From assembly GCA_017347485.1 (NCBI GenBank), contig AP021857.1:1219390-1283389 (forward strand): a stretch of DNA of 64,000 nt. Reading direction: 5' to 3'. Positions within the stretch are counted from its first letter, which is position 1; each line of letters begins with the position of its first letter. A program made the translations under genes and the position numbers. Shown one piece after another: positions 2,579-60,803 of the stretch. The stretch comes from Candidatus Desulfobacillus denitrificans (GTDB taxonomy: Bacteria > Pseudomonadota > Gammaproteobacteria > Burkholderiales > Rhodocyclaceae). The notes beneath the pieces were generated by a model, which saw only the letters and a program-made list of their open reading frames with translations, was not told the DNA's origin and did no database searches.

Positions 2579-5416
2579 TCAGTTGTATTCCTCAGTCGGC
2601 GGGCAGGCGCAGAACAGGTTGCGGTCGCCGTACACGTCGTCAATGCGGTTCACCGAGGGCCAGAACTTGTTCTGCGCCACCCAGTGCAGCGGAAAGGCGG
2701 CTTCGCGGCGCGTGTACGGACGATTCCATTCGGCGTCGGCGAGGTCGGCCTGGGTATGCGGCGCACGCTTGAGCGGGTTGTCCTCCGCCGGCCACTCGCC
2801 GCGCTCGACCTTGCGGATCTCCTCGCGGATGTTGGCCAGCGCGGCGATGAAGCGGTCGAGCTCCCCCTTCGACTCCGACTCGGTCGGCTCGACCATGATG
2901 GTGCCGGCCACCGGGAAACTCACCGTCGGCGCGTGGAAGCCGTAGTCCATCAGGCGCTTGGCGATGTCGATCTCGGCGATGCCGGTCGCCGCCTTGATGG
3001 CGCGGATGTCGAGGATGCACTCGTGGGCGACGCGGCCGTGGCTGCCCGTGTAGAGAACGGGGTAATGCTCCTTCAGCCGCGCGGCGACGTAGTTGGCGTT
3101 GAGGATGGCGACCTCGGTGGCGCGCTTCAGGCCCGTGCCGCCGAGCATGGCGATGTACATCCAGGAGATCGGCAGGATCGAGGCCGAGCCGAAGGGCGCG
3201 GCGCTGACGGCGCCTTGCGCGCCGACGCGGTCGGCTGCCAGCAGGTGGCCGGGGGCGTAGGGCGCGAGGTGCGCCTTCAGCCCGATCGGCCCCATGCCGG
3301 GCCCGCCGCCGCCGTGCGGAATGGCGAAGGTCTTGTGCAGGTTCATGTGGCTGACGTCGGCGCCGATGCTGGCCGGCGAGGTCAGCCCGACCTGGGCGTT
3401 GAGGTTGGCGCCGTCCATGTACACCTGGCCGCCGTTGGCGTGCACGACCGCGCAGATTTCCTTCACCGCCTCCTCGAAGACGCCGTGGGTGGACGGGTAG
3501 GTGAGCATCAGGCAGGAGAGGTTAGCCGCATGGCTCTCCGCCTTCGCCTTGAGGTCGGCGACGTCGACGTTGCCGCTGTCGTCGCAGTCGACCACCACCA
3601 CCTGCAGGCCGCACATCTGCGCCGTGGCCGGGTTGGTGCCGTGCGCCGATTTCGGGATCAGGCAGACGTTGCGGTGCCCCTCGCCCTGCGCCGCCTGGTA
3701 GCGGCGGATGGAGACGAGGCCGGCATACTCGCCCTGGGCGCCGGAGTTGGGTTGCATGCAGATGGCGTCGAAGCCGGTGATGGCCTTGAGGCTGTCGGCG
3801 AGGCCGCCGATCATCTCGGCGTAGCCGGCGGCTTGATCCGCGGGGGCGAAGGGATGCAGGTCGCCGAACTCGGGCCAGGTGATGGGGATCATCTCGCTGG
3901 TGGCGTTCAGCTTCATGGTGCAGGAGCCGAGCGAGATCATCGAATGGTCGAGCGCGAGGTCCTTGTTCTGCAGGCGCTTGAGGTAGCGCAGCATCCCGTG
4001 CTCGGTGTGGTGCGCGCCGAACACCGGGTGGGAGAGGATGGCGTCGGTGCGCAGGAGGCCCGCGAGCGGATCGTTCGCCGCCGCCTGCGCGTCGAGCTTG
4101 TCGATGTCGGTTTCCTTGCCGGTGATGGCCTTCAGCAGGGCTGCGACGTCCTCGCGCGTGGTTTTCTCGTCGAGCGAAAGGCCGCGCACCTTTTGCGACA
4201 CCAGGCGCAGGTTGTAGCCGGGCACCTCCGCGGTCGTCTCGACATGGAGCGTGTCGAACCAGCGCTGCGTCAGCACCTTCACGTCGGCGGCCTTGAGGCC
4301 CGCGGCGAGGATGCCGGTGAGGCGGTGGATGCGGCCGGCGATGGTCTTCAGTCCCTGCGGGCCATGGTAGACGGCATACATGCCGGCGATGTTGGCGAGC
4401 AGCACCTGCGAGGTGCAGATGTTGGAGTTGGCCTTCTCGCGGCGGATGTGCTGCTCGCGCGTCTGCAGGGCCATGCGCAGGGCGCGGTGGCCGCGCGCGT
4501 CGACGGAGACGCCGATGATGCGGCCCGGCACGGCGCGCTTGTGCTCGTCGCGGCAGGCGAAGAAGGCGGCGTGCGGGCCGCCGAAGCCCATCGGCACGCC
4601 GAAGCGCTGTGCGGAGCCGAGGGCGATGTCGGCGCCCATGGTGCCGGGCGACTTGAGCAGCACCAGCGCCATCAGGTCGGCCGCCACCGCCGTGATGCAG
4701 CCGCTGACTTTCAGTTTGGCGATGACGTCGGTCAGGTCGACACATTCGCCGGAATCGTTCGGATACTGCAGCAGGGCGCCGAAGACGTCGTGTTTCGCGG
4801 CTTCCGCGGCGGGGCCGACGATCAGCTCGTAGCCGAAGTAAGCGGCGCGCGTCTTCACCACGTCGAGCGTCTGCGGGAAGCAGGCGGCGTCGACGAAGAA
4901 GGCGTTCGATTTCGACTTCGAGGCCCGCCGCGCCATAGTCATCGCTTCGGCGGCGGCGGTGGCCTCGTCGAGCAGCGAAGCGTTGGCCAACTCCATGCCG
5001 GTGAGGTCGATCACCATCTGCTGCCAGTTGAGCAGCGCCTCCAGCCGGCCCTGGGCGATCTCCGCCTGGTAGGGCGTGTAGGCGGTGTACCAGCCGGGAT
5101 TCTCCAGCAGGTTGCGCAGGATCACCCTGGGCAGCAGGGTGTCGTAATAGCCCATGCCGATGAGCGACTTTTTGACGACGTTCTTCGCGGCGATGGTTTT
5201 CAGCTTCGCCAGCGCCTCGTGCTCGCGCAGCGGGCCGGGAAGCGGCAGCGGTTGCGCCAGGCGGATGGCGGCGGGCACCGTCTGGCCGATCAGCTCGTCC
5301 AGGCTAGAAGCGCCGACGGCGGCCAGCATGGCGGCCGTTTCGGCGGCATCCGGGCCGATGTGTCTTGCGATGAACTCGTCGCGCTGCTCGAGCGCGGAGA
5401 GGGGGGCGTGCGTCAT
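2579..5416 (-). CDS. gcvP: Glycine dehydrogenase (aminomethyl-transferring), P protein
   Basis: EFIARHIGP start, [32 protein letters not shown]-lysine, GGGGPG. Confidence 0.98.
4688..4711 (-). repeat. Bipartite motif, two mismatches, in gcvP
   Basis: AAAGTCAGCG GCTGCATC ACGGCG; encodes KVSGCITA. Confidence 0.7.
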
Positions 5417-5418
5417 GA

Positions 5419-5802
5419 TTATTCTTCGGCAGCGACCTTGGCGTAGGCGGCGGCGTCGAGCAGGCCGTCCAGGTCGGCGGCGTTGTCCGGCTTCAGCTTG
5501 AACAGCCAGGCGGCGTAGGCGTCCTGGTTCACCGACTCCGGCGCGTCGGCGGCGGCCTGGTTGACGGCGACCACCTCGCCGCCGATCGGCGCGTAGATGT
5601 CGGAGGCGGCCTTGACGGATTCGACCACGGCGCATTCCTCGCCGGCCTTCACCTTGCGGCCGACCGCGGGCAGTTCGAGGAAGACGATGTCGCCGAGCGC
5701 CTCCTGGGCGTGGTCGGAAATGCCGACGGTGACGAGGCCGTCGGAGGCTAAGCGGGCCCACTCGTGGGACTTGGCGTATTTCAGGTCGGCGGGGATGTTC
5801 AT
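5419..5802 (-). CDS. gcvH: Glycine cleavage system H protein
   Basis: [21 protein letters not shown] lipoyl-lysine motif. Confidence 0.98.
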
Positions 5803-5819
5803 GTTTTTCTCCAGAGTAG

Positions 5820-59524: not shown

Positions 59525-59529
59525 GCTTT

Positions 59530-59619
59530 CCCCTCTCCCCAGCCCTCTCCCCGCAAGCGGGGCGAGGGAGCCGGTTTGCTCCCCTCTCCCGCTCGCGGGA
59601 GAGGGGTCGGGGGAGAGGG
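59530..59619. repeat. CCCTCTCCC-type double-hairpin repeat, copy 3 (solo)
   Basis: First 39 nt identical to copies 1 and 2. Confidence 0.9.
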
Positions 59620-59630
59620 CCGGGCGCCGC

Positions 59631-60803
59631 TCATGGCTTCTTGGCGGCGGGTTTTTCCTCGGCGACCGCGCGGACGCCGGCCTTGACGCCGGCGCGCTCC
59701 AGCGAGGTGACGACGCGGTCGCCGCGGGCGAGGCCGCCCTTCGCCTCGGTGAATTCCCAGTTGCTGAGGCCGGCCTCGACCTTGCGCTCCTCGAGCACGC
59801 CGCCCTCCGTCAGCACCAGCACGCGGCTGCCGGGCATCAGCGCCGAGGTGGGGATGCGCAGCACGTCGTCGCGGGCGTCGACCACCACCTCGATGTCGGC
59901 GCTGTAGCCGACCAGCAGATGGCGGATCTCGGCGGGCGACTCGAAGTCCACCTCGACCTCGACGGTGCGCGCCTGCTTCTCCAGCGCCAGCACGTAGGGG
60001 GCGATGCGCCGCACCTTGCCGGTGAAGTGCTTGCCGCGATAGGCGTCGAGGCTGATGCGGCCGGCCATGCCGACCCTGAGCTGGGCGGCATCCACCTCGT
60101 CGATGGGCGCCGTGACGTAGAGGCAGGCGTCGTCGATGAGGTCGATCGCCGGCAGCGTCGGGATGCCGGGCGGCGAGGGCGTCAGGTATTCGCCGACCTC
60201 GCCGTTCACCTCGGCGACGATGCCGTCGAAGGGCGCCTTGACCACGGTGCGCGCGGTGTCGGCGCGCGAGGCGCCGATGCGCGCCTGCGCCTCCTGCACC
60301 TGGGCGCGGGCCGAGTCGCAGCCGGCCTGCCGCGCCTTGGCCTCGCTCTCGGCCTGGTCGACGCGTTCCTCGGAGACGAAGCCCTTGGCGCGCAGGGCCC
60401 GCGTGCGCTCGGCGTTGCGGCGCGCGTTGTCGGCGACCAGGCAGGCTTCGCGCACGTGCGCCTGCGCCGTGGCGCGCTGCTCGAGCGAGATGCGCTCGCG
60501 CGCGGCGAGGTCGTCGTTCCACAGCTCGACCAGCACCTGGCCGGCCTTGACGCGGTCGCCCTCGCGCACCAGCAGCTTGTCGATGCGCCCGCCCATCGGC
60601 GGCGCCAGCTTGGCGCGGCGGCAGGCGGCGACCGAGCCGGCGCGCGTGTTGGCGACGGTGGTTTCGACGCGGCCGGGCTCGGCGGCGGCGACGGTGACGG
60701 CGATGGGCTTCGGCCGCGTCAGGGAGAAAGTCAGTCCCGCCAGCACGGCGAGGACGACGGCGGCGATGAGGAGGTTGCGCAGCAGGGTTGGAGGGCGGGT
60801 CAT
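59631..60803 (-). CDS. Efflux periplasmic adaptor (MacA/HlyD family)
   Basis: N-terminal TM, biotinyl-lipoyl GGRIDKLLVREGDRVKAGQ, KAPFDGIV, IDEVDA. Confidence 0.92.
   Translation of the reverse strand: MTRPPTLLRNLLIAAVVLAVLAGLTFSLTRPKPIAVTVAAAEPGRVETTVANTRAGSVAACRRAKLAPPMGGRIDKLLVREGDRVKAGQVLVELWNDDLAARERISLEQRATAQAHVREACLVADNARRNAERTRALRAKGFVSEERVDQAESEAKARQAGCDSARAQVQEAQARIGASRADTARTVVKAPFDGIVAEVNGEVGEYLTPSPPGIPTLPAIDLIDDACLYVTAPIDEVDAAQLRVGMAGRISLDAYRGKHFTGKVRRIAPYVLALEKQARTVEVEVDFESPAEIRHLLVGYSADIEVVVDARDDVLRIPTSALMPGSRVLVLTEGGVLEERKVEAGLSNWEFTEAKGGLARGDRVVTSLERAGVKAGVRAVAEEKPAAKKP
60727..60750 (+). repeat. Bipartite motif, perfect, in the adaptor N-terminal TM
   Basis: AAAGTCAGTC CCGCCAGC ACGGCG; antisense, encodes AVLAGLTF. 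Confidence 0.9.

What the first reader, a model, noticed from the sequence alone, without database searches (positions are those of the whole stretch)
4688..60750. The motif is written into proteins in five reading frames using disfavoured codons
Seen: intragenic copies give KVSxxxTA (parC, padH, gcvP; EVS in lldD), KSVxxxRR (gcvT), QSQSxxHG (MFS), AVxxxLTF/L (dgkA, ABC permease, adaptor, padD) and RRxxxTDF (CoA ligase). They force AAA, AGT, TCA, ACT, TTT and often GGA codons into genes that otherwise end codons in G/C. The sixth frame contains TGA and is not used within a gene body. The sites tend to be termini, loops or TM helices. Inference: selection or molecular drive acts on the DNA rather than the protein, the same imprint that DUS/USS leave on Neisseria and Haemophilus proteomes.
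Basis: partly seen in the sequence, partly recalled or inferred. Interest (0 to 1): 0.75.

Follow-up and report, generated by a model that had tools for sequence, protein, structure and literature searches.

The report
Genus-wide DNA motif imprinted on proteins
A 25-base DNA word repeated hundreds of times in this bacterium is kept intact by selection on the DNA itself, so it forces odd codons and short peptides into many proteins, much as DNA-uptake sequences do in Neisseria and Haemophilus, although its reader is still unknown.

Summary
Observation confirmed. The motif is aAAAGTCAGT-CnCnGCRRn-ACGGCG. The window holds 16 copies (0.1 expected). The 3.15-Mb genome holds 432 strict and about 630 near-perfect copies.

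Of 276 intragenic copies, 147 read AVxxxLTF, 71 KVSxxxTA, 24 xSQSxxxG, 20 RRxxxTDF and 14 KSVxxxRR. None sits in the TGA frame inside a gene, but 13 genes use that TGA as their stop codon. The codons forced in are rare: AGT is 2.5% of Ser, ACT 3.2% of Thr, TCA 1.6% of Ser and GGA 4.5% of Gly.

The DNA-level interpretation is supported:
- Against a congener at 84% identity, third-codon positions in the core match 108/110, against 473/677 in the flanks.
- In motif-less congeners the same sites differ in peptide (47% vs 74% identity) and in DNA, mostly without indels.
- At the parC 5' end one species keeps the DNA word in a different reading frame.

Copies show no strand or replichore bias, crowd just after stop codons and avoid low-GC islands. 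They are abundant in one Rhodocyclaceae genus only.

The function is unproven. A DUS/USS-like self-tag fits best (about 0.4). Against it, no ComEA and no conserved ComP-type pilin were found.

The parts
1208..1231 (+). Perfect motif copy, intergenic, between convergent genes (890-1150 + and 1268-2035 -)
4688..4711 (-). One-mismatch copy (AAAGTCAGC) in gcvP, sense frame, residues 236-243 KVSGCITA. The same variant is kept in G002.
6079..6102 (-). Perfect copy in gcvT, sense frame, residues 262-270 KSVLAARR (AAG TCA GTC). Conserved in G002.
25826..25849 (+). Perfect copy in the N-terminal, Pro-rich extension of parC (KVSPGSTA). Kept in most of the genus, read in another frame in G020, lost in G011 and G001.
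28161..28184 (+). Perfect copy antisense to dgkA, residues 114-122 of 125 (AVVWGLTL, with GGA CTG ACT)
33468..33491 (+). One-mismatch copy (GAAGTCAGT) in the lldD-like FMN dehydrogenase, EVSAAGTA, residues 116-123. Identical in G002.
34278..34301 (+). Perfect copy, intergenic, 10 nt after the lldD-like stop codon
34492..34515 (+). Perfect copy, intergenic, inside the variable low-GC zone
35757..35780 (-). One-mismatch copy (AAATTCAGT), intergenic, 157 nt upstream of the CoA-ligase gene
37977..38000 (-). Perfect copy antisense at the extreme C-terminus of the ADP-forming CoA ligase-like gene: RRPGGTDF, then TGA. Identical in G002.
41449..41472 (-). Two-mismatch (decayed) copy antisense in the DmsC-like padD, AVLPWLTL. 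G002 has the perfect motif at this site.
44611..44634 (+). Perfect copy in the padH-like pyridine-nucleotide-disulphide oxidoreductase, KVSRCETA, residues 210-217. Conserved in G002.
51135..51158 (-). Perfect copy, intergenic by my gene calls (between 50709-51056 and 51196-51591, both on the - strand)
52876..52899 (-). Perfect copy in an MFS transporter, sense frame, QSQSEQHG, residues 189-197 of 390 (central loop)
55953..55976 (+). Perfect copy antisense in a MacB/FtsX-type ABC permease, AVLLGLTF, residues 345-353
60727..60750 (+). Perfect copy antisense in a HlyD-family adaptor, AVLAGLTF, residues 19-27 (N-terminal anchor)

Best explanation
SHOWN. The 25-bp word aAAAGTCAGT-CnCnGCRRn-ACGGCG is a signal in double-stranded DNA. 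Its sequence is maintained independently of what it encodes, and the peptide and rare-codon imprint is a by-product.
- Copies arise and are lost by point substitution at sites where the protein tolerates the word. Many such sites already encoded something like AVLxGLT[FL].
- Copies are excluded from the frame that reads TGA, except where that TGA ends the gene.
- Elsewhere they pile up in the least constrained DNA, the first few bases after stop codons.

INFERRED. Something conserved across the genus reads this word on either strand, anywhere on the chromosome. The best-fitting model is a self-DNA tag of the DUS/USS kind. In that model a DNA-exchange step (uptake, or another sequence-biased step before recombination) prefers fragments that carry the word. 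The word then accumulates in the core genome by molecular drive and is afterwards held by purifying selection.

Confidence is about 0.95 for the DNA-level part and about 0.4 for the uptake-type mechanism. The score below is for the mechanism.
For: ABUNDANCE AND DISTRIBUTION.
- 432 strict and 627 copies at >=13/15 core positions in 3.15 Mb, where AAGTCAGT alone would be expected about 30 times.
- 211 copies on the + strand and 221 on the - strand, no replichore skew, and near-exponential spacing (CV 0.97).
- All five open frames plus intergenic DNA are used, and the stop frame is used only as a stop codon.
- Frame usage roughly follows codon compatibility. Every frame is at least 10^5-fold over chance.

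CONSERVATION.
- G000 against G002: core 98.0%, spacer 87.4%, flank 83.8% identical; third-codon positions 108/110 against 473/677.
- 22 of 23 G002 copies are perfect in G000.
- The same result holds in 78-87 sites from other MAGs.

ORIGIN BY SUBSTITUTION. 39 of 47 orthologous sites in motif-less congeners are gapless, with diverged peptides and codons. Presence/absence sites between motif-bearing species are also mostly gapless.

PLACEMENT.
- Density is 1.2/kb between convergent genes, 0.37/kb between tandem genes, 0.13/kb between divergent genes and 0.098/kb in coding DNA.
- Copies between tandem genes lie a median 13 nt from the upstream stop codon.
- There is no orientation bias.
- Copies are depleted in low-GC islands with atypical codon usage (Spearman 0.51).

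TAXONOMIC RANGE.
- Hundreds of copies in 21 of 24 congeners first scanned.
- None in 16 other families of the order.
- Among 89 genera of the family, only three others carry low counts (8-40).
- G011 falls among motif-rich species in the GcvP tree, and in an unresolved basal polytomy with three of them in the ParC tree. It has no strict copies, only AAGTCAGC-type relics.

MACHINERY AND LITERATURE. ComEC and a type IV pilus minor-pilin cluster are present. These properties match published descriptions of DUS/USS (bioRxiv 10.1101/2025.10.24.684340).
Against: - No ComEA homologue was found in the complete genome G000, or in most of the genus, with two profile models. The same search finds small ComEA-like ORFs in 8 of 14 genomes from other families of the order.
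- The only PF16732 'ComP_DUS' hit is a generic PilE-type minor pilin. Its globular domain is conserved in only 3 of 27 congeners, so it cannot be the reader of a motif that is invariant across the genus.
- The motif is 25 bp and bipartite, far longer than the 9-12 bp DUS/USS cores. Its density (1 per 5-7 kb) is several-fold lower.
- Inverted pairs, typical of DUS terminators, are very rare (2 in the genome).
- Per-site conservation is very high (98%), which would equally fit sites that each have a function of their own.
- No member of the genus is known to me to be transformable.
Confidence: 0.4

Rival explanations
1. Binding-site array for a lineage-specific chromosomal DNA-binding protein, such as a nucleoid-associated or chromosome-organising factor, possibly a domesticated recombinase or transposase. 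Each site would be functional and held by ordinary purifying selection, with no drive.
For: - The word is long (about 25 bp), asymmetric and bipartite with a fixed 9-bp spacer, as expected for a large or two-domain DNA-binding protein.
- Individual sites are very highly conserved across species.
- The core is identical in several genera.
- Canonical uptake components ComEA and a conserved ComP-type pilin are absent.
Against: - No candidate protein was identified.
- Known chromosomal site arrays (parS, matS, SBS, NBS) have tens of sites and a regional pattern. Here there are 400-600 sites with Poisson-like spacing and no macrodomain pattern.
- Abundance forms a continuum among species (5, 17, 41, 61, 133 ... 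432), and there is a large pool of one-off variants (133 copies at 14/15, 82 at 13/15). This looks like a mutation-drive balance rather than a fixed regulon.
Confidence: 0.3
2. A selfish sequence spread by a motif-specific conversion process, such as a nicking or repair enzyme or a site-specific recombinase that turns near-matches into matches or uses the word as an attachment site. It would have no benefit to the host.
For: - Many near-motif 'proto-sites' in relatives differ by 1-3 mostly synonymous changes.
- At one intergenic site the motif is inverted between species (L058).
Against: - Alignment-block ends between G000 and G002 are no closer to motif copies than random intergenic points are (9 of 98 within 100 bp, 7.7 expected).
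- Copies are not insertions.
- No repair system known to me recognises 25 bp.
Confidence: 0.12
3. Miniature mobile element (a MITE- or REP-like insertion) that happens to keep reading frames open.
For: The copy number and the preference for DNA just 3' of genes resemble REP/BIME elements.
Against: - There is no length difference at 39 of 47 orthologous sites that lack the motif.
- There is no hairpin covariation in the spacer; Watson-Crick fractions equal those expected by chance.
- 64% of copies are inside genes.
- There are no target duplications or terminal repeats.
Confidence: 0.03
4. An RNA-level element (terminator, RNase or sRNA site), or protein-level selection for the peptides.
For: Some antisense copies look like a weak hairpin followed by a T-run, for example 37981-37993.
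Against: - There is no orientation bias relative to the upstream gene (43 antisense against 38 sense).
- No Rfam family overlaps any copy.
- Five unrelated peptides share one DNA word.
- The motif survives a frame change in G020 parC.
Confidence: 0.03

Closest known systems
DNA uptake sequences of Neisseriaceae (DUS, 10-12 bp, read by the minor pilin ComP)
   Same: - Lineage-specific word in hundreds of copies, with no strand bias.
- Present in several reading frames, with the stop-containing frame avoided.
- Enriched just downstream of genes and scarce in acquired islands.
- Copy number varies among related species.
   Different: - 25 bp and bipartite with a fixed spacer, against 10-12 bp.
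- About 5-fold lower density.
- Inverted-repeat terminator pairs are almost absent.
- No conserved ComP-type pilin and no ComEA were detected.
- Uptake bias has not been tested.
Uptake signal sequences of Pasteurellaceae (USS, a 9-bp core within a ~29-bp extended motif)
   Same: - An extended multi-part motif.
- Intragenic copies sit at poorly conserved protein positions and in the reading frames cheapest for the protein (Findlay and Redfield, as cited in 10.1101/2025.10.24.684340).
- Origin by point mutation rather than insertion.
   Different: - USS flanks are loose AT tracts. Here the second half-site, ACGGCG, is as strict as the first.
- The host is a high-GC environmental Rhodocyclaceae genus in which competence is not known.
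REP/BIME and Neisseria dRS3-type intergenic repeats
   Same: Hundreds of copies, with a preference for DNA 3' of genes.
   Different: - Those repeats are palindromic, intergenic only, and are inserted or mobilised.
- This word is non-palindromic, mostly intragenic, and arises by substitution.
Polar chromosomal words (Chi, KOPS)
   Same: An over-represented taxon-specific oligomer that also occurs inside genes.
   Different: Those words are 5-8 bp and strongly co-oriented with replication. This motif shows no replichore skew.

Membership tests
DNA uptake enhancing sequences (DUS/USS) | Short conserved word in hundreds to thousands of copies, far above chance | tested here: met
   432 strict and 627 near-perfect copies; the window has 16 against 0.1 expected
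DNA uptake enhancing sequences (DUS/USS) | Restricted to one lineage, with abundance differing among relatives | tested here: met
   Abundant in one genus of the 89 sampled in the family; low counts in three other genera; none in 16 other families
DNA uptake enhancing sequences (DUS/USS) | Both strands used equally, with no replication polarity | tested here: met
   211 on + and 221 on -; no skew in either replichore
DNA uptake enhancing sequences (DUS/USS) | Intragenic copies in several frames, stop frame avoided, at poorly conserved protein positions | tested here: met
   Five frames used and 0 copies in the TGA frame; site identity 47.5% against 73.8% for the rest of the protein
DNA uptake enhancing sequences (DUS/USS) | Enrichment in terminators, often as inverted-repeat pairs | tested here: inconclusive
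   Strong enrichment just after stop codons, but only 2 inverted pairs in the genome and no hairpin covariation
DNA uptake enhancing sequences (DUS/USS) | A conserved extracellular receptor (a ComP- or ComN-type minor pilin) co-occurring with the word | tested here: not met
   The PF16732 hit is a generic PilE. A full-length homologue occurs in only G001, G007 and G042
DNA uptake enhancing sequences (DUS/USS) | A complete transformation machinery, including ComEA and ComEC | tested here: not met
   ComEC is present. ComEA was not detected with PF12836 or TIGR00426, although it was detected in other families. DprA and PilQ/PilT were not tested.
DNA uptake enhancing sequences (DUS/USS) | Sequence-biased DNA uptake or transformation shown experimentally | not testable with these tools
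   Needs uptake or competition assays in a cultivated member
REP / RAYT-type repeats | Imperfect palindrome forming a hairpin, intergenic | tested here: not met
   Watson-Crick fractions in the spacer equal those expected by chance; 64% of copies are intragenic
MITE / mobile insertion | Presence or absence differs by an insertion of the element's length | tested here: not met
   39 of 47 sites are gapless against motif-less orthologues; presence/absence sites between species are gapless
Chi / KOPS polar words | Orientation skewed with the direction of replication | tested here: not met
   Replichore counts of about 100/113 and 111/108
Known RNA families (Rfam 15) | A match at the family's gathering score | tested here: not met
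   The window holds only three tRNAs and a glycine riboswitch, none at a motif copy

The most novel reading that the evidence does not exclude
This would be a third, independently evolved family of DNA-exchange self-recognition sequences, after DUS and USS. It lives in an environmental Rhodocyclaceae genus known almost only from metagenomes. Its word is unusually long (25 bp) and bipartite. Its reader is neither ComP-like nor ComEA-dependent, which implies an undescribed sequence-specific DNA receptor or a different sequence-biased step of gene exchange.
Probability: 0.3. Interest if true: 0.85.

Novelty: new variant of a known kind. Interest (0 to 1): 0.62.

Why it matters
Sequence-specific self-DNA tags are documented in only two bacterial families, Neisseriaceae and Pasteurellaceae (10.1101/2025.10.24.684340). 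Debate over whether they arise by molecular drive or by selection rests on those two cases.

This genus offers a third, unrelated case with useful features:
- A graded series of species, from 0 to about 430 copies.
- An apparent natural loss (G011), where the word decays to common codons.
- A frame-shifted but intact copy in parC.
- Very clean evidence that synonymous rare codons can be held fixed for reasons unrelated to translation.

There is also a practical point. Codon-usage, dN/dS and gene-calling analyses in these genomes will be distorted at about 300 coding sites. In addition, 13 genes end on a stop codon that belongs to the motif.

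Tried and rejected
1. HAIRPIN OR REP MODEL. The spacer shows no covariation.

2. INSERTION OR MITE MODEL. Orthologous empty sites have the same length.

3. POLAR WORD (Chi/KOPS). There is no replichore skew.

4. 'DIALECT' IN MOTIF-LESS CONGENERS. A k-mer enrichment that recovers the motif from 100 kb of G000 finds nothing comparable in 375 kb of G011, 500 kb of G023 or 100 kb of G020.

5. ComP-LIKE RECEPTOR.
- The PF16732 hit lies upstream of fimT-pilVWXY1 and belongs to the widespread PilE family.
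- It has no sequence match to any solved ComP structure; the PDB hits are other type IV pilins, matched mainly through the N-terminal helix.
- It is not conserved among motif-rich genomes.

6. CORRELATION WITH COMPETENCE GENES. ComEC is present in motif-rich and motif-less genomes alike. ComEA is absent from both groups.

7. MOTIF AS A RECOMBINATION OR INSERTION BREAKPOINT. There is no enrichment at synteny-block ends beyond that of intergenic controls.

8. TERMINATOR OR RNA ELEMENT. There is no orientation bias and no Rfam match.

9. LITERATURE. I found no paper linking uptake sequences to Rhodocyclales, and the 8-mer search returned only primer-like hits in unrelated papers.

10. EARLIER-FINDINGS LOOK-UP BY SEQUENCE. 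It returned nothing.

Full report
**What the motif is**

The finding does not state the motif. K-mer counting and a position matrix give AAAGTCAGT-N9-ACGGCG with a fixed 9-bp spacer.

In intergenic copies the spacer is itself constrained, and the full word is AAAAGTCAGTCnCnGCRRnACGGCG, about 25 bp. The same spacer preferences appear in every reading frame, so they are not a coding artefact. Spacer positions show no Watson-Crick covariation, so it is not a hairpin.

The window is part of a closed genome of 3,145,360 bp and 66.7% GC. That genome has 537 AAGTCAGT, where my own composition estimate expects about 30. It has 432 strict bipartite copies (211 on the + strand, 221 on the - strand). Against the 15 fixed positions of AAAGTCAGT-N9-ACGGCG, 412 sites match 15/15, 133 match 14/15 and 82 match 13/15. 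The window has 16 copies at <=2 mismatches, against 0.10 expected.

**Checking the observation**

Pfam confirms the host genes.
- KVSxxxTA in gcvP and the padH-like gene, and EVS in the lldD-like gene.
- KSVxxxRR in gcvT.
- QSQSxxHG in the central loop of the MFS transporter.
- AVxxxLT[FL] in dgkA, the MacB-type permease, the HlyD adaptor and the DmsC-like padD.
- RRxxxTDF as the last residues of the CoA ligase.

The parC copy lay upstream of my own start call.

The codons forced in are rare in this genome: AGT 2.5% and TCA 1.6% of Ser, ACT 3.2% of Thr, GGA 4.5% of Gly, CGT 4.6% of Arg, TTT 10% of Phe and AAA 14.5% of Lys. About 9% of all AGT codons and 12% of all ACT codons in the genome sit in strict motif copies.

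I made a rough gene call for the whole genome (2947 genes) and classified all 432 copies:

| Class | Copies |
|---|---|
| Intergenic | 131 |
| On a gene boundary | 25 |
| AVxxxLTF | 147 |
| KVSxxxTA | 71 |
| xSQSxxxG | 24 |
| RRxxxTDF | 20 |
| KSVxxxRR | 14 |
| TGA frame | 0 |

The sixth frame is not simply avoided. Thirteen genes end on the TGA inside the motif (...PSxxD*), and dozens of copies start within 0-3 nt of a stop codon.

Frame usage follows codon compatibility only roughly. The predicted order is A2 > S2 > S1 > A0 > S0 and the observed order is A2 > S1 > S2 > A0 > S0. Every frame is at least 10^5-fold over chance.

The claim about termini, loops and TM helices is only partly borne out genome-wide:
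- A quarter of AVxxxLTF sites fall in TM-like windows, against 6% background.
- The last 10 residues of proteins are about 2-fold enriched.
- Flank hydropathy is ordinary.

**Is the constraint on the DNA?**

Yes, on four independent lines.

1. *Unbiased comparison with the closed congener G002* (400 kb fetched without regard to the motif; 328 kb aligned at 84.4% identity).
   - 22 of 23 G002 copies are perfect in G000.
   - Identity is 98.0% in the core, 87.4% in the spacer and 83.8% in the flanks.
   - Third-codon positions match 108/110 in the core against 473/677 in the flanks (P = 2e-13).
   - The same picture holds for 78-87 gapless orthologous sites in about 100 MAG loci and for samples of G014, G017 and G018.
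   - All 8 window copies that lie in aligned blocks are retained in G002. This includes the one-mismatch variants in gcvP and lldD. The decayed padD copy is perfect in G002.

   - The motif peptide is 47.5% identical, against 73.8% for the rest of the protein.
   - Core DNA is 57.9% identical, against 76.8%.
   - The T of AGT is only 17% identical.
   - 39 of 47 sites have no gap.
   - Many such sites already encode AVLxGLT[FL]-like peptides with common codons. These look like proto-sites, or relics in G011.

3. *The parC 5' end.* The motif is kept in nearly all species. G020, the ParC outgroup at 78% identity, keeps a perfect DNA copy but reads it one frame over as QSQSLQHG.

4. *Intergenic copies* share the identical consensus.

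**Distribution**

Within the genome:
- There is no replichore skew and spacing is near-exponential.
- Density is 1.2/kb between convergent genes, 0.37/kb between tandem genes, 0.13/kb in divergent (promoter) regions and 0.098/kb in coding DNA.
- 67 of 80 tandem-gene copies lie nearer the upstream gene's end, a median 13 nt from its stop codon.
- Copies show no orientation preference.
- The largest motif-free gaps are low-GC stretches with atypical codon usage, and density correlates with GC (rho 0.51).

Across taxa:
- 21 of the 24 congeners first scanned have tens to hundreds of copies. Counts form a graded series: 0, 5, 17, 41, 61, 133 ... 432.
- There are none in 16 other families of the order.
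- Of 89 genera sampled in the family, only three others have low counts (40, 21 and 8).
- A scan of 185,579 species returned only Rhodocyclales, Rhodocyclaceae, 'Sulfuritalea' or unnamed betaproteobacterial MAGs, plus a few probably mis-binned contigs.

G011 has a reduced genome of 2.4 Mb. In the GcvP tree it falls among motif-rich species on a long branch. In the ParC tree it sits in an unresolved basal polytomy with three of them. It has no strict copies and only AAGTCAGC-type relics, which looks like a secondary loss. No replacement word was detected in the motif-less genomes.

**What it is not**

- Not an insertion or MITE: orthologous sites without the motif are gapless.
- Not REP-like: there is no hairpin and most copies are intragenic.
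- Not Chi or KOPS: there is no polarity.
- Not a known RNA family.
- Not a terminator: there is no orientation bias, although a few antisense copies resemble a weak hairpin plus T-run.
- Not a marker of synteny breakpoints: 9 of 98 block ends lie within 100 bp of a copy, against 7.7 expected for intergenic points.

**Mechanism**

The anatomy is what published work describes for DUS and USS: a lineage-specific word, symmetric between strands, tolerated in the cheapest reading frames and at poorly conserved residues, crowded behind genes, and scarce in acquired DNA (10.1101/2025.10.24.684340, read). That paper treats such sequences as known from two families only.

The machinery side does not fit the canonical picture.
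- ComEC and a type IV pilus minor-pilin cluster are present.
- ComEA was not detected in this closed genome, or in most congeners, with PF12836 or TIGR00426. The same search finds small ComEA-like ORFs in 8 of 14 genomes from other families of the order.
- The single PF16732 'ComP_DUS' hit is a generic PilE. Its globular domain is shared by only three congeners, so it cannot read a word that is invariant across the genus.

I therefore rate 'DNA-level signal' as essentially shown. I rate 'uptake- or exchange-type self-tag maintained by drive plus purifying selection' as the best but unproven mechanism (about 0.4). The main rival is a binding-site array for an unidentified lineage-specific chromosomal protein (about 0.3).

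**Novelty and verdict**

The coding imprint itself is the expected consequence of a DNA-level word, and it mirrors DUS/USS. What is new is the word: 25 bp, bipartite, in an environmental Rhodocyclaceae genus, with no recognisable ComP/ComEA partner. New too is the unusually clean comparative evidence, namely the synonymous-site freeze, the frame-shifted copy, the graded series of species and the apparent natural loss. I class it as a new variant of a known kind, of moderately high interest.

Noticed in passing
G000 genome 1356684-1356727 and 1364869-1364912 (outside the window): Two head-to-head motif pairs overlap at ACGGCGCCGT. The first forms a perfect 46-bp palindrome and the second a near-palindrome whose spacers differ. 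They are the only inverted pairs in the genome.
   Followed up: partly
L058 versus G000: At one orthologous intergenic site the motif is present in both species but in opposite orientation. This suggests independent gain or a local inversion.
   Followed up: no
G015, G023, G022, G042: At E <= 1e-100 these genomes gave no ParC match, only the GyrA paralogue at about 46-47% identity, although G015 is 99% complete. Topoisomerase IV may be missing in that sub-lineage.
   Followed up: no
G000 whole genome: Neither ComEA nor the ~780-residue Tex protein (the HHH_3 hits in 8 congeners) was detected in this closed genome.
   Followed up: partly
window 7055-7148 (-): A glycine riboswitch aptamer lies upstream of gcvT-gcvH-gcvP. 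Three tRNA genes lie at 23472-23731 (+).
   Followed up: no
window (16-mers such as CCCCTCTCCCCAGCCC) and after the parC stop codon in G017, G007 and G013: A separate palindromic REP-like repeat (GGGGAGAGGG...CCCTCTCCCC) occupies intergenic sites. In some species it replaces the dgkA neighbourhood downstream of parC.
   Followed up: no
G011 contigs: G011, which lacks the motif, carries a different repeat, ATCCCAGCCTACG (GTAGG-type, REP-like). It has about 26-34 copies in 375 kb, against 2 copies in all of G000.
   Followed up: no
G000 2295241-2304225 (outside the window): The minor-pilin cluster pilE-like/fimT/pilV/pilW/pilX/pilY1 is highly variable within the genus. A full-length PilE homologue occurs in only 3 of 27 congeners.
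   Followed up: partly
G020 contigs C97, C99, C91 and G021 contig C15: In the low-count MAGs the motif copies cluster on a few contigs. This could reflect mis-binned contigs or segments imported from motif-rich relatives. The parC copy in G020 is clearly native.
   Followed up: no
motif reverse complement CGCCGTCCTGCGGGGACTGACTTTT: There is a superficial resemblance to Neisseriaceae DUS dialects (GCCGTCTGAA; vit3DUS GCGTCCTGTA). However, the CTG in the spacer is present in only a minority of copies, so I treat the resemblance as coincidence.
   Followed up: partly
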